Below are positions 1,001-60,445 of a DNA stretch of 64,000 nucleotides, piece by piece. The notes under the pieces were generated by a model. The model had not been told where the DNA came from, made no database searches, and saw nothing but the letters and a program-made list of their open reading frames with translations. The stretch lies in contig DATAUW010000002.1 of the NCBI GenBank assembly GCA_036268055.1, positions 28,124 to 92,123 of the forward strand, given 5' to 3'. This DNA is from Verrucomicrobiia bacterium. GTDB lineage: Bacteria > Verrucomicrobiota > Verrucomicrobiia > Limisphaerales > Pedosphaeraceae. Position 1 is the first letter of the stretch. Every line of letters begins with the position of its first letter. The position numbers and the translations under genes were made by a program.

Positions 1001-1044
1001 GAGTCGGTGGCGAGATGGTTTTTGTGCGCCGTGGTATGGGACGT

Positions 1045-1290
1045 TGATTTTGACGCAGAGGCGCAGAGGCGCAGAGGCGCAGAGGAGGAAAGAATGGCGA
1101 GATAATGAAAGAAATGAGTTTTTCTTCATCCCATTTCTGTCCTCGCTTAATTACGAAATGAGATTTCACGAGCGCCAACAGCTTGTGATTTATACGTCTA
1201 AGCCACCTGCTGGAGTCTTCTCCCTCTCCGCCGCTTGCGGGGGAGAGGGTTGGGGAGAGGTGGTCCCGTTCACCCCATTTATGGATAAGG
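1045..1290. repeat. Composite repeat region, a degenerate MITE-like relative of the element at 53091-53204. It includes a tandem octamer (gcagaggc) of about 4.5 copies at 1054-1090 and an inverted repeat ccctctccgcc..ggggagaggg at 1215-1250.
   Basis: ttttgacgcagaggcgcagagg... matches the left TIR of the element at 53091. The internal ggaaagaa..atgag string is shared with it. It occupies the unusually long spacer between the alpha-E and transglutaminase genes. Confidence 0.45.
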
Positions 1291-1387
1291 AGAAGATTGA
1301 GGGTTCGATTGTTTTGGGAGATTCGTGTGCATTGAGAGTTAGCAAGGTCTTCGCGCTCGGGGGCAGGGATGCTCGCGCGATTTGAGT

Positions 1388-2371
1388 TCATTGCACACGC
1401 TCTTTGACGGGAGTTTTGGCTTCGGGCATGCGCTTGGCGAGGAAGCGCTCGTAGATGCCGGTACTCGCGAGGTTCATGTTGGTTTGCAGCGCGTCGAGAT
1501 ATTCGTGGAGACCGCTGTTCATGATTTCGTCCATGTTCGCGTAGGCAAGGTCGGAGCAAATCTGGCCAAGCAATTTTTCAGCAGGCTTGCGGTACGTGCC
1601 GATGGGTGTGCCGGAAATGGCGTGGAGCGAATCGCGGGCGGTGCTGAGGCAAAAGCGAATCGCGCGCGGGAACTCGGGGTTGAGCAAAAGAAATTCGGCA
1701 ATCGCCTGCGGCGAGATGCGACCGTGGCATTTGCGATACATCTCAAACGCGCTGGCCGAACGCAACACGGCGATCCATTGCACCTCGTCCAGCGGCGTGC
1801 CGACGTCCTGCACGGAGCGAAGCAGAATAAAATATTTTACGTCGAGAATGCGGGAAGTTTTATCGGCGCGCTCAAGCAGTCGCCCAAGCCGGCCAAAGTG
1901 CCAGCCTTCGCCGTGAGTCATGGTGGCATCGGTGATGCCGCTGAAAAGATGGCTCGCGAGTTTGACCTCGGAAAAAAATTCGTTGGGCGAATAAAACCCC
2001 TTGCCGCTGGTGGCGGCGGAATTAACCATCAAAAAAAATGTGTTCAGTTGCAGCCACATTTCCGACGAGATGATTTCTCGGACGGAATGCGCATTTTCCC
2101 GCGCAGCGCGAAGGCAGGAAATGATCGAATTGGGATTATCACGATCGAAAGTCAAAAACTGGATGACGTTTTCCTGCGTGGCCGCGCCTTTGTAACGCTC
2201 ACCGAAAGATTCATGATCGCCGGTGATATTGACGAGCGGTTCCCATTGCTGATCCGCATTGCCGGAGTCCAGCATGAGATTCAAATTGACGTCCACAAAG
2301 CGCGCGACATTTTCCGCGCGCTCGACATAGCGGCTCATCCAGTAAATTGAATCGGCGACGCGGCTGAGCAT
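1388..2371 (-). CDS. Alpha-E domain protein (DUF403), the middle gene of the CP-ATP-grasp module
   Basis: 327 aa, MLSRVADSIYWMSRYVERAENVARFVDVNL... is a typical alpha-E N-terminus. Its start codon overlaps the upstream gene stop at 2371. Confidence 0.85.
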   Translation of the reverse strand: MLSRVADSIYWMSRYVERAENVARFVDVNLNLMLDSGNADQQWEPLVNITGDHESFGERYKGAATQENVIQFLTFDRDNPNSIISCLRAARENAHSVREIISSEMWLQLNTFFLMVNSAATSGKGFYSPNEFFSEVKLASHLFSGITDATMTHGEGWHFGRLGRLLERADKTSRILDVKYFILLRSVQDVGTPLDEVQWIAVLRSASAFEMYRKCHGRISPQAIAEFLLLNPEFPRAIRFCLSTARDSLHAISGTPIGTYRKPAEKLLGQICSDLAYANMDEIMNSGLHEYLDALQTNMNLASTGIYERFLAKRMPEAKTPVKERVQ

Positions 2372-3897
2372 CAGGCATTCGCTCCTGCCACCTGGGATTG
2401 GCTTTGGGTTTGAGGCTGGGGCTGAGTGTCTTTATGAGTATCGGTCTCGTGGGATATGGGACTGTCGGCCAGCACCCAGGTATCTTTGCTGCCGCCGCCC
2501 TGGGAGGAATTCACAACCAGCGAACCTTTCTTGAGCGCGACGCGAGTAAGGCCGCCCGGCAGTACGAAAATATCTTTGCCATATAATATATATGGCCGGA
2601 GATCCACATGACGGCCAGCGAGGCTGCCGTCCACCAGCGTGGGGACGCGCGAAAGCGCCAGCGTCGGCTGGGCGATGTAGTTGCGCGGATTGGCCACAAT
2701 TCGCTTGGCGAATTCCGCGTGATCTTCCTTCGTTGCGTGCGGACCGATGAGCATGCCGTAACCGCCGGATTCGTTGGCGGCTTTAACGACCAGTTCGGGC
2801 AGATGTTCGAGCACGTATTTCAAATCTTTTTCCTCGGCGCAAATATAGGTGGGCACATTGGGAAGAATAATATCTTCGCCCAGATAATATTTGATGATGC
2901 GCGGGACGTAAGCGTAAACGACTTTGTCATCGGCGACGCCGGTGCCGGGGGCATTGGCGAGAGCGACGTTGCCGGATTTGTAAACACTCATCAGGCCCGG
3001 CACGCCAAGCATGGAATCCGCGCGGAACGCCTCAGGGTCAAGAAAGTCATCATCCACTCGGCGGTAGATGACATCCACGCGCTCGAAGCCGTTCGTCGTG
3101 CGCATCCAGACGTAACCTTCCGACACGACGAGGTCGCTGCCTTCGACGAGTTCCACGCCCATTTGTTGCGCGAGAAACGAATGCTCAAAGTAAGCGGAAT
3201 TGAAAACGCCCGGCGTCAGCACAACCACGCGCGGAGAACTCGAGGCGTCAGGCGCGAGATATTCGAGCATGTCCCGCAGTCGAATGGGATAATTCGAGAC
3301 GGGCCGAATGTGCGACGCGGCGAAGACTTGCGGAAAAAGACTTTTCATCAACCGCCGATTTTCCAATACGTAGGAAACGCCGGATGGACAGCGAAGATTG
3401 TCTTCGAGAACGTAAATATTGCCGTCGCTGTGACGAACAAGGTCCGTGCCGGTGATGTGACACCAGATGTCGCGCGGCGGATTAATGCCGACGCATTGTT
3501 CGCGAAAACCTTTGGACGACGAGATGATGTCCATGGGAACCGCGCCGTCCTTGATGATCTTGCGGTCGTGATAAAGATCGTCAATGAACAGGTTCAGCGC
3601 GCGGATGCGCTGGGTGAGGCCGCGTTCAATACGCTGCCATTCGGTGGCATCCACGATTCGCGGGACCAGGTCGAAGGGCAAAGTCTTTTCCACGCCGGCG
3701 CTTTCGCCGTAAACATTAAAAGTGATGCCGGCCTGAATCAACGCACGGTCGGCGGCAAGCTGGCGGTTGAGCAATTCGCCGGGAGGAAGTGATTCGATGT
3801 TGCGAGCAAGAGGCTTTGCGGCGGCGCGTGGTTGGCCATTCTTGCAGAACATTTCATCAAAAAAACCGCCGCAATCGTATTCGTGAAAATAATTCAT
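2371..3897 (-). CDS. Circularly permuted ATP-grasp type 2 protein (DUF404/DUF407 amidoligase-like)
   Basis: 508 aa with conserved family-level similarity across its length. The gene order CP-ATP-grasp > alpha-E > transglutaminase is the canonical conserved operon. The C-terminal ~25 aa form a Thr/Gln/Pro-rich tail (DTHKDTQPQPQTQSQSQ). Confidence 0.85.
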   Translation of the reverse strand: MNYFHEYDCGGFFDEMFCKNGQPRAAAKPLARNIESLPPGELLNRQLAADRALIQAGITFNVYGESAGVEKTLPFDLVPRIVDATEWQRIERGLTQRIRALNLFIDDLYHDRKIIKDGAVPMDIISSSKGFREQCVGINPPRDIWCHITGTDLVRHSDGNIYVLEDNLRCPSGVSYVLENRRLMKSLFPQVFAASHIRPVSNYPIRLRDMLEYLAPDASSSPRVVVLTPGVFNSAYFEHSFLAQQMGVELVEGSDLVVSEGYVWMRTTNGFERVDVIYRRVDDDFLDPEAFRADSMLGVPGLMSVYKSGNVALANAPGTGVADDKVVYAYVPRIIKYYLGEDIILPNVPTYICAEEKDLKYVLEHLPELVVKAANESGGYGMLIGPHATKEDHAEFAKRIVANPRNYIAQPTLALSRVPTLVDGSLAGRHVDLRPYILYGKDIFVLPGGLTRVALKKGSLVVNSSQGGGSKDTWVLADSPISHETDTHKDTQPQPQTQSQSQVAGANA

Positions 3898-4526: not shown

Positions 4527-5888
4527 ATGACGACCCCAAATCAAACCGATACATCCACGGATACGGCGTCGCGTTTTCAAAACGCAACGGCGTCCACCAA
4601 CAATAAAAGCAAAATCACCAGCGCGAAGTCTGCGACCGGGTCGAAAGCGGCGTCCAGCAAAGCGAAAAATTCTTCGAGCCAAACGAAGCACACGGGTTCC
4701 AAGGCAAGTGCGAAAGGTTCGAGCGCAAAATTTTCCAAAGGAGCATCCCGTTCGGGCGCTTCCAGGGGAAAGAAAAACCAGAAAGCACAAACAGAAAGAT
4801 CAAATATGTCGAATCAACAGCAGCGAGGCCGAAATGGAAATCGCGGAAGCGATTACAATGACCGCTTTGAAAATCAAGACAACCGCCGGCGCGAAAGCCA
4901 ATCCTCGAACTGGGGACAAAGTTCGGATGATTGGTCTGAACGCTACGGCAACGGCGGGCGTCTCTCGAATCAGGAGCGTGATGAACGCAGCCGTTATGAA
5001 GAGACGGGCAGTCGGCAGGGCAACAACCGCCGGCAAGGGCGCGCGGGCAACGGGGGTTCGCAATCCTCTTCGCAATATCGCGGACAGGATTATTATGACC
5101 GGCAGGATCGCGAGAACTCCGGCACTTCTTCCTATGGATCGCAAAATGAAAATTGGGATGACCAGCGCAATTACGGCCAGAGCAGCCAGCGCGGAGGAAG
5201 TTACGGACGCGGAAGTAATTTCAATCGTGAAGGCCGCGGACATTCGCAGAATTCCCAGGGCTCGCAGAATTGGCGGAACACCGGTCAAAACGACGAGTAT
5301 GATTCGGGAAATTCGCGTTCACAAAACCGTGAGCGCAATCAGGGCTCACAGAGTCGCGGATATAACGAGGAATCGGATTGGGGCCCAGGCTTCAACCAGG
5401 GTTCTCAAAGTTCCAACCGGAATCAACAATCTGGTCAAAATTCGCAACCGCGCAATCGTCGCTCGGAATCGCAGAACCGCGATTGGGATGACGCCGCCGG
5501 ACGCTACGATCAACCAAACGATTATCAATCCTCATCGCGTTCGGGCAGCGGGCGCGATTGGAATGAAACTCATGCAGATCAGCAAGGCAGTCGCCGTCGC
5601 TCGCGCAATCAGACTCAGGAACAATACGACCAGGATCGCTTCCAGAATTCCGATTACGCGCGCGCTTACTCCGGTTCGAGCGACTGGGATGATTCCCAGG
5701 AATATGACCGTCCCGGCAACGTGAGTTCTTCCGGACGACCCGACCGCGAACGCGAAGAGTGGGATCGTTTTGAAAACGAAAGCACCGAGCAGCCCGGCCG
5801 TGAATATCAAAGCTACGATCAGCGTCAACGCGGATCGTCGCGCGGAAATTCGCGTCGGCAATCACGCGATTATTCTCGCTCGAATTAA
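4527..5888 (+). CDS. Hypothetical intrinsically disordered hydrophilic protein. N-terminal Lys/Ser/Ala-rich basic segment. C-terminal Q/N/S/R/G/D/E-rich domain with repeated DW/Y motifs.
   Basis: 453-aa ORF almost devoid of aliphatic residues. There are about 9 Trp residues, each in a xDW[DN][DE]...Y[GD] context. It contains [GS]Y[GS] and RG-rich motifs. A strong intrinsic terminator lies immediately downstream (5917-5952). It sits in a divergent arrangement with the amidoligase operon. The alternative frames are also open because of low complexity, so the coding frame is inferred from the start context and the terminator. Confidence 0.6.
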   Translation: MTTPNQTDTSTDTASRFQNATASTNNKSKITSAKSATGSKAASSKAKNSSSQTKHTGSKASAKGSSAKFSKGASRSGASRGKKNQKAQTERSNMSNQQQRGRNGNRGSDYNDRFENQDNRRRESQSSNWGQSSDDWSERYGNGGRLSNQERDERSRYEETGSRQGNNRRQGRAGNGGSQSSSQYRGQDYYDRQDRENSGTSSYGSQNENWDDQRNYGQSSQRGGSYGRGSNFNREGRGHSQNSQGSQNWRNTGQNDEYDSGNSRSQNRERNQGSQSRGYNEESDWGPGFNQGSQSSNRNQQSGQNSQPRNRRSESQNRDWDDAAGRYDQPNDYQSSSRSGSGRDWNETHADQQGSRRRSRNQTQEQYDQDRFQNSDYARAYSGSSDWDDSQEYDRPGNVSSSGRPDREREEWDRFENESTEQPGREYQSYDQRQRGSSRGNSRRQSRDYSRSN

Positions 5889-5990: not shown

Positions 5991-6087
5991 TAAAACAGAC
6001 TTTGACGCGTATTGCTAAAAGCTAATGCAAAGTTTTCGAGCCAATCGTTTCAAGCATTCGATTCAGCCTAACGCCTTTTTCCTTTTG

Positions 6088-6120
6088 AACTGAAAACTGA
6101 AAACTTGAAACTGAAAACTC
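6088..6120. repeat. Tandem heptamer array (tgaaaac)(tgaaaac)(ttgaaac)(tgaaaac), upstream of gltX
   Basis: Direct reading of ctgaaaactgaaaacttgaaactgaaaactc. Similar arrays occur at 58087-58122, 37318-37345, 12193-12215 and 13505-13530. Confidence 0.5.
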
Positions 6121-6231: not shown

Positions 6232-7578
6232 ATGAAAGTACGGGTAAGATTTGCTCCGAGTCCGACGGGTTTTTTGCACATCGGCGGCGCGCGAACGGCG
6301 TTGTTCAACTGGCTGTATGCGCGGCATACGGGCGGGACATTTGTATTGCGCGTCGAAGACACTGACGCGGCGCGCAACTCACAGGAGGCGGTGGATGTCA
6401 TCCTGAACGGCTTGCGCTGGCTGGGACTCGATTGGGACGAAGGCCCGATCAGCGGCGACGTGACCGGGCCGAGCAAGGGGGATCGCGGGCCGTATTTTCA
6501 GAGCCAGCGAAGCGAGAATTATAAATTGCGTGTGGAGGCATTGTTGTCGCACGGACTCGCGTACGAGCACGAAGGCGCGGTGAAATTCAGGATGCAGCGC
6601 GAACCGGTCGTCATCCCGGATTTGGTCGTGGGAAATGTGACGCGTGAATTGACCGACCGTGAAAAACTCGACCCGGATTTTGTGATCGTGCGCTCGGATG
6701 GTCAGCCGGTGTTTCATCTCGTGAACGTCATTGATGATTTGGAAATGGGCATCACGCACGTAATCCGCGGCGAAGATCATTTGAGCAACACCGCGAAGCA
6801 CATTGCGTTGTTCCGTGCGTTCGGCATCGAGCCGCCGAAGTATGCGCACATTCCGCTTATTTTGAATATTGACGGGTCGAAGATGAGCAAGCGCGATAAG
6901 GGCGCTTCACTGATGACGTATCTGGACGAAGGTTACGCGCCCGAAGCGGTGGTGAATTATTTGTCGCTGCTGGGGTGGTCACCCAAGGGCAATCGCGAGA
7001 AAGTGCCGATCAAGGAAGTCGTCGAGCTTTTTGATCTACCACAAATTTTGCGTCACAATTCCCGATTCGATCTGAATAAATTGCACTGGCTCAACGGCGA
7101 ATACATTCGTGAGATGACGCTGGACCGGTTTCACGAATTGGCGGTGCACGCGCTGGGGCGCCTCGGAATTGATACGAACAAGTATCCGCTGGATTATGTG
7201 AAGGCAGCGCTCGATACGTGCAAGGCGAAGGTGAAATTATTTTCCGAAGTGCCCACGTTTGCGGATTTTTATTTCAAGGACGTGATTGAATTGGACGCGG
7301 AAATGTTGAAAAAAGATTTCCCCGCCGAATTGAAACCGAAGCTGAAACATTTGCGCGATGCGCTCTCCATGTTGCTGAAGTTTGACTCGGACACATTGAA
7401 CCGGACGACGAAGGAAGTGGCGGGCCAACTCGGAGTGGGCATCGGCGTGCTGGTGCATCCAACGCGACTGGCATGCACCGGGCGAACGGTCGGACCGAGC
7501 TTGTATCACTTGATGGAGGTACTGGGAAAAGAGCGGGTGGTGGCGCGGTTTGATTGGGTATTGGGGATGATGGGGTAA
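6232..7578 (+). CDS. gltX: Glutamate--tRNA ligase
   Basis: 448 aa. The HIGH motif (PTGFLHIGGAR) and the KMSKS motif (KMSKR) are present. Family-level similarity along the whole length. Confidence 0.95.
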   Translation: MKVRVRFAPSPTGFLHIGGARTALFNWLYARHTGGTFVLRVEDTDAARNSQEAVDVILNGLRWLGLDWDEGPISGDVTGPSKGDRGPYFQSQRSENYKLRVEALLSHGLAYEHEGAVKFRMQREPVVIPDLVVGNVTRELTDREKLDPDFVIVRSDGQPVFHLVNVIDDLEMGITHVIRGEDHLSNTAKHIALFRAFGIEPPKYAHIPLILNIDGSKMSKRDKGASLMTYLDEGYAPEAVVNYLSLLGWSPKGNREKVPIKEVVELFDLPQILRHNSRFDLNKLHWLNGEYIREMTLDRFHELAVHALGRLGIDTNKYPLDYVKAALDTCKAKVKLFSEVPTFADFYFKDVIELDAEMLKKDFPAELKPKLKHLRDALSMLLKFDSDTLNRTTKEVAGQLGVGIGVLVHPTRLACTGRTVGPSLYHLMEVLGKERVVARFDWVLGMMG

Positions 7579-12944: not shown

Positions 12945-12983
12945 TTTCAGCCACGGATGAAACACGGATTAAACACGAATGGG
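12945..12983 (+). repeat. Dispersed intergenic repeat, family A (ttttcagccacggatgaaacacggattaaacacgaatgg), downstream of pgsA
   Basis: Direct-repeat partner of 12235-12272. Confidence 0.5.
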
Positions 12984-33698: not shown

Positions 33699-33775
33699 GA
33701 ATCCGTGTTCCTCCGTGTTCCATCCGTGGCCAAAATTTCTTTCCCCCAGTGGCCGTCCGCAAGGATCTTCGTGGT
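33699..33775. repeat. Junction of two dispersed repeat families. A family A copy in reverse orientation (gaatccgtgttcctccgtgttccatccgtggccaaaa) lies immediately next to the family B core (tttcccccagtggccgtccgcaaggatct).
   Basis: Sequence matches to 12945-12983 (reverse complement) and to 53155-53185. Confidence 0.45.
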
Positions 33776-50596: not shown

Positions 50597-50775
50597 TTTC
50601 CCCTAACTGAAGTTAGGGATTAATGAGAAGTGTTGGGCAAGTAGGTGAGGGTTGGTTCCATAAGCGGATTTCTTTCGTCCCTTCGGGACTTGATTTGCAA
50701 TGGACGCAAACCCAGCAATAAATTGCTGGGCAAATATCTGCCGTCCCTGCGGGACTTCGGACGGGGAGCGTCAGC
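50597..50775 (+). repeat. Structured ~180-nt repeat element, copy 1 (candidate ncRNA or MITE). It contains a 7-bp-stem/UGAA-loop hairpin, two gtccc-N3/4-gggac hairpins, and the 20-nt perfect palindrome cccagcaataaattgctggg.
   Basis: About 80% identical to 60270-60445. Both copies lie in convergent intergenic spacers. Confidence 0.55.
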
Positions 50776-50887: not shown

Positions 50888-52483
50888 CTAGTGCGGTGCG
50901 GCCTTGGGACTGCCCTGCCATTCCAAAACTTGTTTTTCGGCGAGGAGTTGGGCCTGGAGTTTGGCGACGTCAATTTTTTGCACCGCCACTTTATCATTGA
51001 TCGCTTCGCAAGCGGCAGCGGCGGAGGATTGACCGAGCACCATGAAAACCGGTTCCATACGAATGGAGCCGTAAGCGATGTGCGTTGAGGAAAGGCAGAC
51101 GGGGACGAAAAGATTTTCGCACTCGGACACTTTCGGCACGATGGAACGATAGGCGATTTGATAGGGTGGGAAGCCGCCGATTTGAGTATCGCCTTCATTT
51201 TCGACGCGGCCATTTTTTACGATGCGCTGGCAGTTGTGCGAATCCATCGTGTAGGCGGCGAGGCCGATGGCGTCGGGAAGTTTGGTCGAGTCGCGGCAAT
51301 TATTTTCCGTCATGACGTAATCAGAAATCATGCGGCGCGCCTCGCGGATGTAAAGTTGATGGGGCCAGCCGCCGGTGTCGGTGAATTCATCTTTGGCCAG
51401 GCCCCATGATTGCATGTAGCGGCGCATGGTTTCGGGAACGCGCGGGCTGGTCGCGAGAAAGTAGAGGAAACCGCGCGTGTAATCTTCGTGTTCGCGAAAG
51501 ATCTGTTCACGTCGCGTGTAATTCGCCTCGGGATAATCGTAACTCGCGCCAATAAAATCAGTGGAGAAACCGCCGTTGTTGTTGATGTCGGTTTTGCCGT
51601 TCGGCATCGGCTGGATGTGCATGAACTCGCCAAGCTTGGGGTTTTTGCCGGCGGCGACAAGGGCTTCGAGGTAACGCGCGAGTAGTTCGTAGCGCGCGGG
51701 ATCGTAATTGGCAGGCGCGGCGATGGGAATTTTGTTGGTGGGATTTTGCGTGAGGCAGAGGCGGAAATTGTACGCTTGCACGCAACGGTCACCGGCACCG
51801 GGCACGCCGCCATCGCCGGGTTGAACCAGGGGAATCAAGCCGCTGGTTGGGTCGCCGGGTTTCACGTAGGGATCTACGGCAATGGTGAATTGATGCTTGG
51901 GCGTTTGGGGGCGGACGCCATCGAGGGTTTCGTGATATTGCGAATTGGGTTCACGCCCGACGAAATAGGAAACGCCGGCGCGCGCCATGAGGTCGCCTTC
52001 ATAGCTGGCATCAATGAACATTTTCGCGCGAAAAATATTGCCATTTTCCATCACGATTTCCGTGATGCGCGCGCCGTCTTTTTTTACGGAGGCAAGGCGT
52101 TGTTGAAAATAGACGGGCACTTTGGTTTCGTGCGCCATTTTGACGAAGATATTTTCGGCGACGCTAGGCTCGAAGGACCATTGTTCCTCCTTGTGATAAT
52201 GGCGGCCCATGCGCTGATAGAATTCGCGCGAGAGACCGCCGATGGCGGCTTTGTTGCCGATGTCGGTTTGGCTGAGGCCGCCAGAACTCATGCCGCCGAG
52301 ATGCGAACCGAATTCGGTGAGGACGACAGATTTGCCAAGGCGCGCGGTTTCAACGGCGGCGATGACTCCGCCGGCAGTGCCGTCGTAAACGCAAACGTCG
52401 GCGGTGATGATTTCAGCGGCGGAATTGTGCGCAGCGAGCGCGGACGCGGCGCAGAACAAAAACGCGCGCCAGAATTTTTTCAT
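50888..52483 (-). CDS. Secreted FAD-dependent oxidoreductase (FAD_oxidored family)
   Basis: Signal peptide MKKFWRAFLFCAASALAA. FAD-binding dinucleotide motif VCVYDGTAGGVIAAVETAR. The ORF-track N-terminal extension to 52579 was rejected. Confidence 0.7.
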   Translation of the reverse strand: MKKFWRAFLFCAASALAAHNSAAEIITADVCVYDGTAGGVIAAVETARLGKSVVLTEFGSHLGGMSSGGLSQTDIGNKAAIGGLSREFYQRMGRHYHKEEQWSFEPSVAENIFVKMAHETKVPVYFQQRLASVKKDGARITEIVMENGNIFRAKMFIDASYEGDLMARAGVSYFVGREPNSQYHETLDGVRPQTPKHQFTIAVDPYVKPGDPTSGLIPLVQPGDGGVPGAGDRCVQAYNFRLCLTQNPTNKIPIAAPANYDPARYELLARYLEALVAAGKNPKLGEFMHIQPMPNGKTDINNNGGFSTDFIGASYDYPEANYTRREQIFREHEDYTRGFLYFLATSPRVPETMRRYMQSWGLAKDEFTDTGGWPHQLYIREARRMISDYVMTENNCRDSTKLPDAIGLAAYTMDSHNCQRIVKNGRVENEGDTQIGGFPPYQIAYRSIVPKVSECENLFVPVCLSSTHIAYGSIRMEPVFMVLGQSSAAAACEAINDKVAVQKIDVAKLQAQLLAEKQVLEWQGSPKAAPH

Positions 52484-53001
52484 TTGGGGGAGGGACGTGA
52501 ATGAGGGGCTTCGGACTTGGCTTTGGCATTGGCGGCGGACTGGTCTTTCATGGGGCGAAAATTTCCCTGTTCGCAGCATTGCACAAAACCTTCAGTGACG
52601 GATTTCAATTCCTCCCAGCGGCCGCGGATGTCGGCGGCTTCACTGGCGACGATTTGGTTGTCGGCAACGGCGGTGGCGATGACAGCGAGGAGGTCGGCGA
52701 ATTCCTGGATGATTTCATTGGTGGCGGGAATGAGAAATTCCTGGTGAGCATTATGCGTCTTGGGATTCTTGATGAAGAATCCGCCGTTGCGCTGGCAGAG
52801 CCATTGGACGATGCGCAGATCGCCGGTGCATTTTTGGAGGGCGTCAATGCGATCGAGGGGATTGGCGGTTCCGCTGCCGACGGTGGCCTCGGGTGGCTCA
52901 GCCCATTTGTAAATCATGGAGAGCGAAAGGCTCAACTCGGCGGCGACTTGTTTGGCGCTGCATTTCTGAAAAACTTCGCGCAATAACTCGTGAGATTGCA
53001 T
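52480..53001 (-). CDS. Hypothetical protein, possibly a helix-turn-helix DNA-binding regulator
   Basis: 173 aa. The segment QVAAELSLSLSMIYKWAEP resembles an HTH. No confident family assignment. Confidence 0.35.
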   Translation of the reverse strand: MQSHELLREVFQKCSAKQVAAELSLSLSMIYKWAEPPEATVGSGTANPLDRIDALQKCTGDLRIVQWLCQRNGGFFIKNPKTHNAHQEFLIPATNEIIQEFADLLAVIATAVADNQIVASEAADIRGRWEELKSVTEGFVQCCEQGNFRPMKDQSAANAKAKSEAPHSRPSPK

Positions 53002-53090
53002 GGGAAACTAAAATGCAGGGAGCGGTGGGAATTGCAAGCCAGAAGGGCGTGTGGTGTATTCGTGAGCGTTGGGGTTTTCGGTGAATTAGA

Positions 53091-53204
53091 TTTGACGCAG
53101 AGGCGCAGAGCGGGGAAAGAAATGAGACGAGGATGAAGGGATATTATTCATGACTCTTTTTCCCAGTGGCCGTCCGCAAGGACCTCTGTGCCTCTGCGTC
53201 AAAA
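53091..53204. mobile_element. MITE-like non-autonomous element (~114 bp) with 20-nt perfect TIRs tttgacgcagaggcgcagag / ctctgtgcctctgcgtcaaa
   Basis: TIRs read directly from the sequence. The internal core tttcccagtggccgtccgcaagga recurs at 33745. The left TIR plus an octamer expansion recurs at 1048-1090. No coding capacity. Confidence 0.5.
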
Positions 53205-53393
53205 ATGATTTGGAATGATGGCGTGATTGCTTCGATGCGGGTTATAAACGCGGGATGAAATTATAAATGATTTTGAATCGGGCGCGTTGTATCAAATGGA
53301 GCATGCGAAGCGGAGAGGATTTGGCGGCTTGAAATTCCTTGCTGGGCAAATGGATTTCGCGGATAAGTAAAGAAAACGAACAGGCGGGTATTT

Positions 53394-53957
53394 ATGGAAT
53401 TCTTTATCTATCTTATTTGCTTGGGGGTTGGACTGGTTTTCACTTTGTTGACCGCATTTTTTGGGCACGTGATGGGCGGGGGCGGGCATGATGCGCACGT
53501 GGGCGGGAGCGGCGGGCATGCGGAGGCAGGCGGAGATGCGAGTGACATGCCGGGGGTTTCGATTTTCAGCCCGACGGTCATCACGACGTTCATAACGGCC
53601 TTTGGCGGATTCGGAATTATTTTTCATCAGATTCCGGCGACGCATAATGTTTTGTTGAGCGCGCCGTTGGCCGCGGTGTTCGCGGTGCTGACGTCGGGAG
53701 TGGTGCTGATGGGCTTGCGGCAATTATTTAAGCGGACCCAAAGTTCGAGCGAATCGAAAGTTGGTGATTTGGAAGGAGCGGTTGGGCATATCATCACGCC
53801 GATTCCGCAGAATGGCGTCGGAGAAATCGCTTACGTGCAGTCGGGCAGCCGCTATACCGCGCCGGCGCGTGAAACCGATGGGGCACCGGTGCCGACGGGC
53901 GCGACCGTCAAGATTGTGCGCATTGTCGGTTCGCAATTTTACGTGAAGACGGTTTGA
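53394..53957 (+). CDS. NfeD-family membrane protein (partner of flotillin/SPFH proteins)
   Basis: 187 aa. N-terminal TM helices. A C-terminal OB-fold/beta-barrel segment (GEIAYVQSGSRYTAPAR...VKIVRIVG). Confidence 0.7.
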   Translation: MEFFIYLICLGVGLVFTLLTAFFGHVMGGGGHDAHVGGSGGHAEAGGDASDMPGVSIFSPTVITTFITAFGGFGIIFHQIPATHNVLLSAPLAAVFAVLTSGVVLMGLRQLFKRTQSSSESKVGDLEGAVGHIITPIPQNGVGEIAYVQSGSRYTAPARETDGAPVPTGATVKIVRIVGSQFYVKTV

Positions 53958-58086: not shown

Positions 58087-58122
58087 GCGGGGAAGTTTCA
58101 AGTTTGAAGTTTCAAGTTTTCA
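58087..58122. repeat. Heptamer array (minus-strand reading: tgaaaac ttgaaac ttcaaac ttgaaac), upstream of sixA
   Basis: Direct reading. Related to the 6088-6120 array. Confidence 0.45.
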
Positions 58123-58286
58123 GTTGGGACGGCGGAGCGGCAGTTCCGCCCTACCGCGCGGTGGATTTCCGAATGCGGTGGTAAAGATCGAGAGTTGATA
58201 GGTGCGGAAATGAGTTGAGGCAGGTTGCGTGTGGGATTGACTTCTGTTGCGTGGAGACGGAATGATTGCGGGAACACAATTCACCC

Positions 58287-60269: not shown

Positions 60270-60445
60270 TTTCCCCCGGCTGAAGCCGGGGGTTAATGAG
60301 AAGCGATTGGTTTTTGCGGGCGATGGAAGAGTGGCGGCGGAATTTCTTTCGTCCCTGCGGGACTTAATTTATGACGGATGGGAACCCAGCAATAAATTGC
60401 TGGGCTAAGTTCTGTCGTCCCTGAGGGGACTTTGGACGGCCGAGC
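60270..60445 (+). repeat. Structured ~180-nt repeat element, copy 2 (candidate ncRNA or MITE)
   Basis: Paralogue of 50597-50775. The 5' hairpin ccccggc-tgaa-gccgggg retains pairing through 3 compensatory changes relative to copy 1. Confidence 0.55.

What the first reader, a model, noticed from the sequence alone, without database searches (positions are those of the whole stretch)
1001..1387. Repeat-filled 387-bp insertion between the alpha-E and transglutaminase genes of the amidoligase operon
In the canonical CP-ATP-grasp > alpha-E > transglutaminase operon the genes are tightly packed; here the first two overlap at 2371. Yet alpha-E (ending at 1388) and the transglutaminase start (1000) are separated by 387 bp. 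This spacer consists of the MITE-like left TIR, an octamer tandem array and a second inverted repeat (ccctctccgcc...ggggagaggg, 1215-1250). An insertion like this could decouple or re-regulate the third gene, through an internal promoter or a terminator hairpin.
Basis: partly seen in the sequence, partly recalled or inferred. Interest (0 to 1): 0.5.

Follow-up and report, generated by a model that had tools for sequence, protein, structure and literature searches.

The report
Repeat-cluttered spacer inside an amidoligase cluster
The 387-base gap between two genes of a Verrucomicrobial amidoligase cluster is real and unusually long, but it is built from two already-described kinds of short intergenic repeat plus a small ancestral leader, and nothing in the sequence shows that it regulates anything.

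Summary
Alpha-E ends at 1388, the next gene starts at 1000, and the 387 nt between them hold a perfect (CGCAGAGG)x4 array and a 13-nt-arm hairpin.

The downstream gene is not the small transglutaminase of the canonical triad. It is a 1123-aa Bact_transglu_N/Transglut_core/DUF2126 protein that opens a second module of a conserved five- to six-gene cluster.

In 37 relatives with the same adjacency the spacer has a median of 32 nt and a maximum of 212 nt, so this one is the longest. It consists of:
- About 40 nt of ancestral leader next to the ATG.
- A truncated, one-armed copy of a palindromic element whose arms are tandem octamers. A full copy lies at 53088-53206. The family is common in metagenomes and is also found in Nostoc and Thiodictyon. 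The architecture was described in Geobacter metallireducens.
- A BoxC/PIT-type potential intrastrand-triplex motif.
- Unassigned DNA.

Other lineages carry different tandem-repeat-armed palindromes or a BoxC motif at this same junction, so these look like independent gains.

I found no sigma-70-like promoter, no intrinsic terminator, no Rfam family and no credible ORF. The best reading is passive accumulation of structure-prone repeats at a permissive junction. Interest is low to moderate.

The parts
2371..3897 (-). CP-ATP-grasp gene (508 aa), first gene of module 1
   Evidence: PF14403 at E=2.8e-172 and PF04174 at E=1.9e-147. Its stop overlaps the alpha-E start by one base.
1388..2371 (-). 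Alpha-E gene (327 aa)
   Evidence: PF04168 at E=4e-109. The exact protein lies on the 715-kb JGI contig Ga0376694_0000005.
1..1000 (-). First 333 codons of a 1123-aa Bact_transglu_N / Transglut_core / DUF2126 protein (runs off the window). This is the first gene of module 2, not the small transglutaminase.
   Evidence: Pfam hits. The full gene is at L001 7372-10743 and is followed by a fused CP_ATPgrasp + Alpha-E gene. The same order is seen in relatives.
1001..1387 (.). The 387-nt spacer. It is non-coding and the longest non-coding version of this junction among the relatives examined.
   Evidence: Gap table. All six frames score as non-coding: -0.17 to -0.64 per codon, against +0.17 for the 5th percentile of gene windows. 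No Pfam or NCBIfam hit. The 113-aa ORF called by JGI finds only itself among 1.84 billion representatives.
1001..1040 (-). ATG-proximal leader retained from the ancestral short spacer
   Evidence: Aligns with the whole 34-nt spacer of L085 and with the last ~40 nt of the L088 spacer, CATAC..CGGCGC...CCGCCAC.GACT.ATG.
1047..1148 (+). Truncated, one-armed copy of an octamer-armed palindromic element. It has the outer end TTTTGA, four perfect octamers, degenerate inner octamers and an interior homologous to the 53-kb copy. The right arm is missing.
   Evidence: Local alignment to the reverse complement of 53088-53206, score 72. Homology ends at ...CCTCGCT, where the 53-kb copy continues into its arm CTGCGCCTCTGCGTCAAA. 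BLAST matches. Inner degenerate octamers resemble those of metagenomic copies.
1054..1085 (+). (CGCAGAGG)x4 perfect tandem array. On the operon's sense strand it reads (CCTCTGCG)x4, and it ends 53 nt upstream of the ATG at 1000.
   Evidence: TRF score 64, 100% matches; the repeat finder family D1.
1222..1260 (+). BoxC/PIT/TM-type potential intrastrand-triplex motif: CCCTCTCCGCCGC-TT-GCGGGGGAGAGGG-TTG-GGGAGAGG
   Evidence: 12 of 13 Watson-Crick pairs. After the linker TTG there are 8 consecutive mirror-repeat positions. DNA hairpin of -13.4 kcal/mol, z=-3.2. Aligns with the TM(ECO) sequences of Holder et al. 2015 Table 1.
1324..1399 (-). 12-nt-arm inverted repeat (1324-1335 / 1388-1399) that encloses the alpha-E stop codon, with an inner CGCGCGAGC...GAGCGCG hairpin. 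Meaning unknown.
   Evidence: the repeat finder I4, 92% complementary. It forms the first helix of the minimum-energy RNA fold of the sense strand.
1338..1387 (-). Stop-proximal ~50 nt of the spacer, shared with the closest relative found (94% aa)
   Evidence: Local alignment with the 55 nt that follow alpha-E in L083.
53088..53206 (.). Complete two-armed copy of the octamer-armed palindrome, used as the reference for the truncated copy in the spacer
   Evidence: Arms TTTGACGCAGAGGCGCAGAG / CTCTGTGCCTCTGCGTCAAA. DNA hairpin of -31.3 kcal/mol, z=-7.5, with 0 of 200 shuffles as stable.
12952..12982 (+). Solo arm of a variant unit (CACGGAT.AAA) of the same superfamily
33701..33775 (-). Solo arm (ACACGGAG/ACACGGAT x3) followed by a fragment that shares the interior CCCAGTGGCCGTCCGCAAGGA with the 53-kb copy

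Best explanation
The spacer is a non-coding mosaic that grew from a short (~30-40 nt) ancestral intergenic region. It grew by acquiring structure-prone short repeats, which then partly decayed. Two classes are identifiable:
- One arm and the interior of a palindromic element whose arms are tandem octamers (TTTGA-(CGCAGAGG)n ... (CCTCTGCG)n-TCAAA).
- A BoxC/PIT-type hairpin-plus-purine-tract motif.

The junction lies between two functional modules of a conserved amidoligase cluster: CP-ATP-grasp + alpha-E, then DUF2126 protein + fused ATP-grasp/alpha-E + small transglutaminase. This junction tolerates insertions, so such elements accumulate there without a dedicated function.

Inferred consequences:
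- Any translational coupling between alpha-E and the DUF2126 gene is lost.
- The transcript, if continuous, carries a long structured untranslated stretch.
- The four perfect octamers probably reflect recent replication slippage.

Shown: the anatomy, the comparison with relatives, the repeat families and the non-coding status. Inferred: neutrality, read-through transcription and slippage.
For: 1. **Short spacers in relatives.** The median is 32 nt in 37 loci. Relatives at 77-88% identity have 25-35 nt. Several have 3-6 nt, consistent with tight packing.
2. **Only the last ~40 nt align.** That stretch before the ATG aligns with the short spacers of L085 and L088.
3. **1047-1148 is a copy of the element at 53088-53206, minus its right arm**.
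4. **The arm type is multicopy.** It occurs at 4 intergenic places in the window, 6 clusters against 0.49 expected. It also occurs in more than 120 metagenome contigs, where 59 of 129 arms have an inverted partner 61-246 nt away and about half are solo. Copies exist in plasmids of Nostoc and Thiodictyon.
5. **The architecture is published.** Paired arrays of 3-5 tandem 7-8-mers on opposite strands at variable distance are described for Geobacter metallireducens, including a unit TCTCCGTS[Y] and a pair between proB and proA (PMC2700814).
6. **1222-1260 fits the BoxC/PIT/TM motif**. That motif is always intergenic in E. coli, is associated with intergenic variability, and lacks promoter or terminator activity (PMC4666352).
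7. **Independent gains at the same junction.** L212 carries a complete palindrome with heptamer arms (AGCWCCA)n. L009 and L043 carry AATCAGT-like arms. L049 carries about 9 GGAYTTY units. L088 carries a BoxC motif in the opposite orientation. Eleven further relatives have whole genes inserted there.
8. **No regulatory or coding signal.** No promoter, terminator or Rfam match, and no coding signal.
Against: - The closest relative (94% aa) shares at least the first ~50 nt after the stop codon, so part of the long spacer is older than a very recent insertion. Its contig ends there, so the rest is unknown.
- About 190 nt (1149-1221 and 1263-1337) match nothing I could find, so their origin is unexplained.
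- Four perfect octamers close to a start codon, and the recurrence of analogous elements at this junction in several lineages, could also mean selection for something.
- The promoter scan covers only sigma-70-type consensus, and Verrucomicrobial promoters are poorly known.
- No expression data exist for this uncultured organism.
Confidence: 0.65

Rival explanations
1. Regulatory insertion. The inserted DNA supplies an internal promoter for the DUF2126 gene, or a terminator or attenuator hairpin after alpha-E, so that the two modules are expressed separately.
For: - The junction separates two modules, and in 11 relatives it holds whole inserted genes, so separate expression is plausible there.
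- The spacer RNA folds better than shuffles, z=-3.2.
- A 12-bp stem encloses the alpha-E stop codon.
Against: - No sigma-70-like promoter and no stem-plus-T-run terminator on either strand in 800-1600.
- Neither hairpin is followed by a T run.
- PIT/BoxC elements had no promoter or terminator activity in E. coli tests summarised in PMC4666352.
- The octamer element is only a single arm here and cannot form its long hairpin.
Confidence: 0.15
2. Protein-binding array. The tandem octamers, read (CCTCTGCG)x4 on the mRNA or as DNA, are binding sites for a nucleoid-associated or global regulator, as guessed for the Geobacter paired sites. Alternatively they bind a post-transcriptional regulator, as proposed for TAACTGA repeats upstream of start codons. 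Either way they would control the second module.
For: - The array is perfect and ends 53 nt upstream of the ATG.
- The arm sequence is conserved across very different bacteria while the loops vary freely.
- In many pairs the arms are not strictly complementary. Identity between an element's own arms is 0.49, against 0.34 for arms from different elements. This fits unit-level rather than hairpin-level constraint.
- There is precedent for such hypotheses in PMC2700814 and PMC4679880.
Against: - No binding protein is known for any of these families; both published proposals are untested.
- Copies show no consistent position relative to genes. They lie next to unrelated housekeeping genes, at variable distances and in both orientations.
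- About half of the arms are solo or decayed.
- Relatives do without any such array at this junction.
Confidence: 0.12
3. Ancestral regulatory leader. The long spacer is the original state, and the short spacers of relatives are deletions.
For: The 94% relative shares the first ~50 nt after the stop. The last ~40 nt are conserved in two relatives.
Against: - 28 of 37 relatives have less than 100 nt.
- Those with 100 nt or more carry unrelated sequences.
- BLAST and tblastx of the spacer against all other spacers and inserts find nothing beyond the repeat motifs.
Confidence: 0.04
4. A hidden gene. This would be either the 113-aa ORF that JGI called on the opposite strand (1044-1385 +), or a small sense-strand peptide such as a substrate of the amidoligase.
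For: An ORF is open for 113-130 codons, and a gene caller accepted it.
Against: - Its codon score is -0.17, against +0.17 for the 5th percentile of real gene windows. Its GC3 is 0.57, against 0.68 in genes.
- No Pfam or NCBIfam hit.
- An exhaustive HMMER search finds only itself plus two weak hits over the stretch encoded by the BoxC motif.
- It runs through both repeat elements.
- Relatives have no room for it.
Confidence: 0.02

Closest known systems
BoxC / PIT (potential intrastrand triplex) / TM(ECO) motif: Bachellier et al. 1990s, Hoyne and Maher 2000, Holder et al. 2015 (PMC4666352)
   Same: The layout matches: a pyrimidine tract CCCTCTCC, a short loop, the complementary purine tract GGGAGAGGG, a 3-nt linker, and a mirror purine tract GGGAGAGG. 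It is strictly intergenic. It sits at a junction that varies between relatives, as reported for TM loci.
   Different: - The hairpin stem is extended to 13 bp (GCCGC/GCGGG) with one G-G mismatch.
- The third tract is GGGAGAGG rather than GGGTGAGGG.
- Only one copy lies in this 64-kb window.
- The host is a Verrucomicrobium, a phylum not mentioned in the text I read.
- Triplex formation is untested.
Paired tandem-repeat 'global regulator binding sites' of Geobacter metallireducens, classes 1-3: Aklujkar et al. 2009 (PMC2700814)
   Same: - The architecture matches: 3-5 tandem 7-8-mers, a partner array on the opposite strand at variable distance, many intergenic copies and occasional unpaired vestigial sites.
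- The class 2 unit TCTCCGTS[Y] is close to CTCTGCGY/CTCCGTGT here.
- One class 3 pair lies between the co-oriented genes proB and proA, as here.
   Different: The outer ends here are TTTGAC...GTCAAA, and the outer octamers are the best conserved, whereas in Geobacter class 1 the outer two are the poorest. The copy in the spacer has a single arm. The IHF/HU-binding idea of that paper is untested and is not supported or refuted here.
Intergenic TAACTGA heptamer direct repeats of Beggiatoaceae, Cyanobacteria and Bacteroidetes (MacGregor 2015, PMC4679880), and cyanobacterial STRR heptamers (Mazel et al. 1990; the latter from my own knowledge)
   Same: Both are short tandem 7-8-mers in intergenic DNA, often in 5' leaders, with a patchy cross-phylum distribution that includes Chromatiaceae and Nostocales and no known transfer mechanism.
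   Different: TAACTGA arrays are mostly single, sit within a few nt of the start codon and overlap the ribosome-binding region. The octamer arrays here typically come as inverted pairs that form long hairpins, and they lie at variable distance from genes.
REP/REPIN elements (Bertels and Rainey 2011, PMC3116915) and MITEs
   Same: All are short, non-coding, multicopy intergenic elements. Doublets form hairpins of about 60-250 nt, with singlets as decay products.
   Different: The arms are tandem direct repeats, not themselves palindromic, and lack the GTAG head of REPs. I saw no target-site duplication at the ends. No transposase or RAYT was found between or beside arms in 120 contigs. The arm sequence is shared across phyla, unlike typical species-specific REPINs.
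CP-ATP-grasp / alpha-E / transglutaminase amidoligase operons (Iyer, Aravind and co-workers 2009; from my own knowledge)
   Same: The first two genes are the canonical pair with overlapping stop and start.
   Different: The gene after the spacer is the large DUF2126-type protein, which starts a second module. The small transglutaminase lies two genes further on in relatives.

Membership tests
BoxC/PIT/TM intrastrand-triplex motif | Pyrimidine tract (CCCTCKCCC) and complementary purine tract forming a hairpin with a short loop | tested here: met
   CCCTCTCCGCCGC / GCGGGGGAGAGGG, 12 of 13 pairs, 2-nt loop. Hairpin of -13.4 kcal/mol, z=-3.2.
BoxC/PIT/TM intrastrand-triplex motif | Third purine tract, mirror-symmetric to the purine arm, after a 1-6-nt linker | tested here: met
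   Linker TTG, then GGGAGAGG, giving 8 consecutive mirror positions. The criteria are taken from PMC4666352.
BoxC/PIT/TM intrastrand-triplex motif | Intergenic location | tested here: met
   It lies in the non-coding spacer.
BoxC/PIT/TM intrastrand-triplex motif | Many near-identical copies per genome | tested here: inconclusive
   There is one copy in the 64-kb window. Similar motifs occur in relatives L040 and L088 (two copies) and in a Synechococcus locus. The rest of the source genome was not available.
BoxC/PIT/TM intrastrand-triplex motif | Actual triplex formation (CD, NMR, DMS footprint) | not testable with these tools
   Needs wet-lab biophysics.
Paired tandem-repeat sites / octamer-armed palindromes (Geobacter class 1-3 type) | Array of 3-5 tandem 7-8-nt units | tested here: met
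   CGCAGAGG x4.0, 100% matches, followed by degenerate units.
Paired tandem-repeat sites / octamer-armed palindromes (Geobacter class 1-3 type) | Partner array on the opposite strand at variable distance | tested here: not met
   There is no inverted partner within the spacer. This feature is met by the copy at 53088-53206 and by 59 of 129 metagenomic arms. The spacer copy is therefore a solo or truncated member.
Paired tandem-repeat sites / octamer-armed palindromes (Geobacter class 1-3 type) | Multicopy, mainly intergenic | tested here: met
   6 clusters in the window against 0.49 expected; 5 of them lie at 4 intergenic places. The arm also occurs in more than 120 metagenome contigs.
Paired tandem-repeat sites / octamer-armed palindromes (Geobacter class 1-3 type) | Bound by IHF/HU or another global regulator (as hypothesised) | not testable with these tools
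   This is an untested hypothesis in PMC2700814.
MITE | Two terminal inverted repeats | tested here: not met
   Only the left arm is present in the spacer.
MITE | Target-site duplication flanking the element | tested here: not met
   No direct duplication flanks the 53-kb copy or the 50 paired metagenomic copies. The flanks simply continue the palindrome, TTT...AAA.
MITE | A parent insertion sequence with the same ends and a transposase | tested here: inconclusive
   No transposase was seen between or next to arms in 120 contigs. Long 'pairs' merely flank ordinary genes. This was not an exhaustive search.
REP/REPIN | Each repeat unit is itself an imperfect palindrome with a conserved GTAG-type head; a RAYT gene is present in the genome | tested here: not met
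   The arms are tandem direct octamers without internal palindromy. I did not search for a RAYT gene.
Intrinsic (Rho-independent) terminator | GC-rich stem-loop followed by a T run | tested here: not met
   0 sites in 800-1600 on either strand, against 1.0 in shuffles.
Sigma-70-type promoter | -35 and -10 hexamers with 16-18-nt spacing | tested here: not met
   0 sites in 800-1600. Other promoter types are not covered by the scan.
Known structured RNA (Rfam) | Match to a covariance model at gathering score | tested here: not met
   The only hit was a chance-level miRNA match, 21.7 bits against an 88-bit cut-off. There were no hits on 20 family members.
Canonical CP-ATP-grasp > alpha-E > small transglutaminase triad | The third gene is a ~300-aa Bact_transglu_N + Transglut_core protein | tested here: not met
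   The gene after the spacer is 1123 aa and has a DUF2126 domain. The ~299-aa transglutaminase lies two genes downstream in relatives.

The most novel reading that the evidence does not exclude
The octamer-armed palindromes (TTTGAC-(GCAGAGGC)n ... (GCCTCTGC)n-GTCAAA) may be a single family that spreads between phyla. Copies occur in Verrucomicrobiota, Nostoc, Thiodictyon, many soil metagenome contigs and, with a near-identical unit, Geobacter class 2 sites. Their partner protein, either a mobilising enzyme or a sequence-specific binder of tandem octamers, is unknown. On this reading the perfect four-unit array 53 nt upstream of the DUF2126 start is a working binding array that sets expression of the second amidoligase module. 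The recurrence of analogous arrays at this junction in other lineages would then reflect selection rather than tolerance.
Probability: 0.1. Interest if true: 0.6.

Novelty: new member of a known kind. Interest (0 to 1): 0.3.

Why it matters
For the amidoligase cluster itself it matters little. The genes are intact, and the spacer only shows that the alpha-E/DUF2126 junction is a boundary between modules that tolerates insertions.

The wider point is descriptive. Growth of this junction in Verrucomicrobiota is mostly due to two poorly understood classes of short, structure-prone repeat. These are BoxC/PIT motifs and palindromes with tandem 7-8-mer arms. Both recur across phyla, and neither has a known function or mobilising mechanism. 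A named, searchable definition of the octamer-armed family would help annotation, because gene callers turn these repeats into spurious ORFs, as JGI did here. It would also give a handle on the open question of what maintains such elements.

Tried and rejected
- **Remnant of an inserted gene.** Some relatives carry PFK-like or PEPCK_PPi-like genes at this junction. tblastx and blastn of the spacer against those inserts gave only chance-level hits.
- **A real protein gene.** Rejected on codon statistics, Pfam, NCBIfam and an exhaustive HMMER search.
- **A known RNA.** Rfam gave nothing.
- **Cargo-carrying versions of the octamer element.** The five arm pairs more than 260 nt apart enclose ordinary genes (a GxxExxY protein, a photolyase-like protein and others). 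They look like separate elements flanking a gene, and no transposase is present. My recollection that such arrays precede GxxExxY or four-helix-bundle genes was supported by only one case (L136), so I dropped it.
- **attC sites, dif sites, terminators.** I considered these from memory and rejected them. The ends TTGAC...GTCAA do not fit the attC R''/R' cores, and there is no T run.
- **A closer relative for the ATG-proximal side of the spacer.** A second protein search with the DUF2126 N-terminus found nothing above 83% identity, so the age of the octamer insertion is not bracketed.
- **Literature search for the octamer arm sequence.** It found nothing.
- **BLAST of the BoxC-like 55-mer against E. 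coli genomes.** No match. The query is short and the database huge, so membership rests on the motif test instead.
- **The BoxC pyrimidine tract (CTCTCCGCC) as the missing right arm of the octamer element.** It is one mismatch from CTCTGCGCC. I noted this and judged it a compositional coincidence, because the terminal GTCAAA and further octamers are absent.
Full report
**Source and gene context**

The alpha-E protein of the window is encoded on a 715-kb JGI metagenome contig, Ga0376694_0000005. Its nearest genomic relatives are Pedosphaera-like Verrucomicrobiota MAGs.

On the minus strand the window carries:
- A CP-ATP-grasp gene at 3897..2371.
- An alpha-E gene at 2371..1388, overlapping the previous stop by one base.
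- After 387 nt, an ORF starting at 1000 that runs off the window.

The extended locus L001 shows that this ORF is a 1123-aa Bact_transglu_N + Transglut_core + DUF2126 protein, followed by a fused CP_ATPgrasp/Alpha-E gene. Relatives continue with a ~299-aa transglutaminase and a PEPCK_PPi-like gene. The spacer therefore lies between two modules of a conserved five- to six-gene cluster. It does not lie in front of the small transglutaminase of the canonical triad.

**Check of the observation**

- (CGCAGAGG)x4 lies at 1054-1085 with 100% matches.
- An inverted repeat has 13-nt arms at 1222-1234 and 1237-1249. Its pattern is unique in the window, against 0.00 expected.
- A 20-22-nt stretch at 1048-1069 matches both arms of an inverted-repeat element at 53088-53206.

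The 'TIR' and the 'octamer array' are the same object, because the arm of that element is made of tandem octamers.

**Comparison with relatives**

I located the three genes by tblastn in 80 genomic loci and in contigs that encode the closest alpha-E proteins.
- In 37 loci alpha-E is directly followed by the DUF2126 orthologue. The gap there has a median of 32 nt and a maximum of 212 nt, and nine gaps reach 100 nt or more.
- Eleven further loci have 1.1-4.8 kb with inserted genes, a phosphofructokinase-like gene and a PEPCK_PPi-like gene.
- Relatives at 77-88% alpha-E identity have 25-35 nt (L003, L005-L007, L085).
- The last ~40 nt before the ATG in the window (1001-1040) align with the whole spacer of L085 and with the end of the spacer of L088. 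This stretch is the ancestral spacer.
- The only closer relative, L083 (94% aa, 86% nt), is a 1240-nt contig that stops 55 nt after alpha-E. Those nucleotides align with the window, so the stop-proximal part of the long spacer predates the split of these two lineages.

That is not the case.

**The octamer arm**

Window 1047-1148 aligns with the reverse complement of 53088-53206 through the arm and the interior. The homology stops where the 53-kb copy enters its second arm. The spacer copy is therefore truncated.

The 53-kb copy folds as a long DNA hairpin of -31.3 kcal/mol (z=-7.5), whereas the spacer copy cannot.

Arms of this type, with units matching C[AG]C[AG]GA[GT], occur at four intergenic places in the window. 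There are six clusters against 0.49 expected.

- Of 129 arms, 59 have an inverted partner, 54 of them 61-246 nt away. About half are solo.
- Loops vary freely in length and sequence.
- Inner octamers are progressively degenerate.
- An element's own arms are only moderately more complementary to each other than arms from different elements, 0.49 against 0.34.
- Pairs further apart enclose ordinary genes and no transposase.

Annotated plasmid records place copies in Thiodictyon syntrophicum, Nostoc edaphicum, Nostoc sp. HK-01 and, weakly, Sphingopyxis. The Nostoc edaphicum copy is a solo arm in the 43-nt gap between the two cytochrome oxidase subunit genes.

There is no Rfam family, and no paper in the library contains the sequence. 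The architecture is nevertheless published. Aklujkar et al. 2009 describe paired sites on opposite strands at variable distance in Geobacter metallireducens. Each site consists of 3-5 tandem 7-8-mers. One unit, TCTCCGTS[Y], is close to the one here, and one pair lies between proB and proA. The authors guessed that IHF/HU-type regulators bind them (PMC2700814). MacGregor 2015 describes the cross-phylum TAACTGA heptamer arrays and proposes a translational role (PMC4679880).

**The hairpin**

The sequence at 1222-1260 reads CCCTCTCCGCCGC-TT-GCGGGGGAGAGGG-TTG-GGGAGAGG.
- The stem has 12 of 13 Watson-Crick pairs.
- After a 3-nt linker, an 8-nt purine tract mirrors the purine arm.

This is the layout of the BoxC/PIT/TM(ECO) motif, and it aligns with the E. 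coli copies listed by Holder et al. 2015. That paper reports four things about the motif:
- It is always intergenic in E. coli.
- It is abundant in more than 260 genomes.
- It is associated with intergenic rearrangement.
- In earlier work by the Maher laboratory it showed no promoter or terminator activity.

The 87% relative L088 has a motif of the same kind in its 156-nt spacer, in the opposite orientation and with non-homologous flanks. That points to an independent gain.

**Recurrence at the junction**

Most relatives with spacers of 100 nt or more carry elements of the same two kinds, but with different sequences.
- L212 has a complete palindrome with (AGCWCCA)n / (TGGWGCT)n arms.
- L009 and L043 have AATCAGT-like arms, with a weaker trace in L022.
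- L049 has about nine GGAYTTY units.
- L030 has TTCGGA-type units.

Growth of this junction is thus mostly due to these repeats. I read this as tolerance of the junction plus abundance of the elements in these genomes, but selection cannot be excluded.

**What the spacer is not**

- It has no sigma-70-like promoter and no intrinsic terminator on either strand.
- It has no Rfam match.
- All six frames score as non-coding.
- The 113-aa ORF that JGI called on the opposite strand runs through both repeats. It has no family match and finds only itself among 1.84 billion representatives, plus two weak hits over the BoxC-encoded stretch.
- The sense-strand RNA of the whole spacer folds somewhat better than shuffles, z=-3.2. 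Its first helix encloses the alpha-E stop codon. I cannot assign a role to it.

**Mechanism and verdict**

The most likely account (confidence about 0.65) runs as follows. A ~30-40-nt ancestral spacer at a module boundary was enlarged stepwise by an octamer-armed palindrome, a BoxC/PIT motif and about 190 nt of DNA of unknown origin. The palindrome later lost one arm, and its outer octamers probably expanded by slippage. No dedicated function followed.

The likely effects are loss of any translational coupling and a long structured untranslated stretch in a probably continuous transcript. These effects are inferred, not shown.

The rivals are, in order of confidence:
- A regulatory insertion (0.15).
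- A protein-binding array (0.12).
- An ancestral leader (0.04).
- A hidden gene (0.02).

Both repeat classes belong to kinds already described, so the finding is a new member of known kinds and its interest is low to moderate. The least ordinary aspect lies outside the finding as posed. The octamer-armed family is widespread across phyla, unnamed, and has no known partner protein.

Noticed in passing
window 53088-53206: A complete 119-nt palindromic element with octamer arms (TTTGACGCAGAGGCGCAGAG / CTCTGTGCCTCTGCGTCAAA). It lies in the divergent intergenic region between ORFs 52480..53001(-) and 53394..53957(+). Its DNA hairpin has z=-7.5.
   Followed up: yes
window 12952-12982 and 33701-33775: Solo arms with variant units (CACGGATGAAA; ACACGGAG/ACACGGAT). 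The second is followed by a fragment (CCCAGTGGCCGTCCGCAAGGA) that is also the interior of the 53-kb element. These look like decayed pieces of the same superfamily.
   Followed up: partly
window 50711-50756 and 60385-60431: Two matches to the Rfam Acido-Lenti-1 RNA motif above gathering score (47.9 and 46.4 bits; cut-off 37). Each is embedded in a longer ~190-nt stretch that looks repeated between the two sites.
   Followed up: no
window 6086-6120 and 58093-58125: Tandem heptamer arrays (AACTGAA x4.6; AAGTTTC x4.7). The first is one mismatch from the TAACTGA repeat of MacGregor 2015 and lies about 110 nt upstream of the glutamyl/glutaminyl-tRNA synthetase-like gene at 6232.
   Followed up: no
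window 4527-5888 (+): A 453-aa ORF of extreme low complexity, rich in S, N, Q, R, G, D and E, with no Pfam hit on record. It is called as a gene by JGI and sits next to the cluster.
   Followed up: no
L014, L017, L018, L031, L039, L042 (about 1.4-1.5 kb) and L020, L026, L033, L034 (about 3.5-4.8 kb), between alpha-E and the DUF2126 gene: In eleven relatives the same junction holds inserted genes. One is a ~470-aa phosphofructokinase-like protein and another is a ~1150-aa protein resembling the PEPCK_PPi gene that lies at the end of the cluster in other relatives. The cluster may therefore be linked to PPi-dependent glycolytic or gluconeogenic enzymes.
   Followed up: partly
L002 (Logan SRR11836410 contig, 1283 nt), end of contig; corresponds to window ~1218: An independent assembly of the same sequence breaks off exactly inside the BoxC-like hairpin. 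This hints that the motif is repeated elsewhere in that genome or is hard to assemble.
   Followed up: no
L126, L132, L191, L197, L199 (metagenome contigs): In one subfamily the octamer-armed element is itself enclosed by a further outer inverted repeat (AGAYTGTTTGAAAAG ... CTTTTCAAACARTCT). This suggests nesting inside another palindrome.
   Followed up: no
L209 (Thiodictyon syntrophicum plasmid pTs485) 1500-1575: Here two arms face each other by their outer ends (…CTCTGCGTGAGA-13 nt-TCTCACGCAGAG…). This is the reverse of the usual arrangement and looks like two abutting elements.
   Followed up: no
window 52483-53001 (-): A 173-aa ORF with a weak match, below cut-off, to the YmfL family of putative phage regulatory proteins (30.5 bits; cut-off 90).
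   Followed up: no
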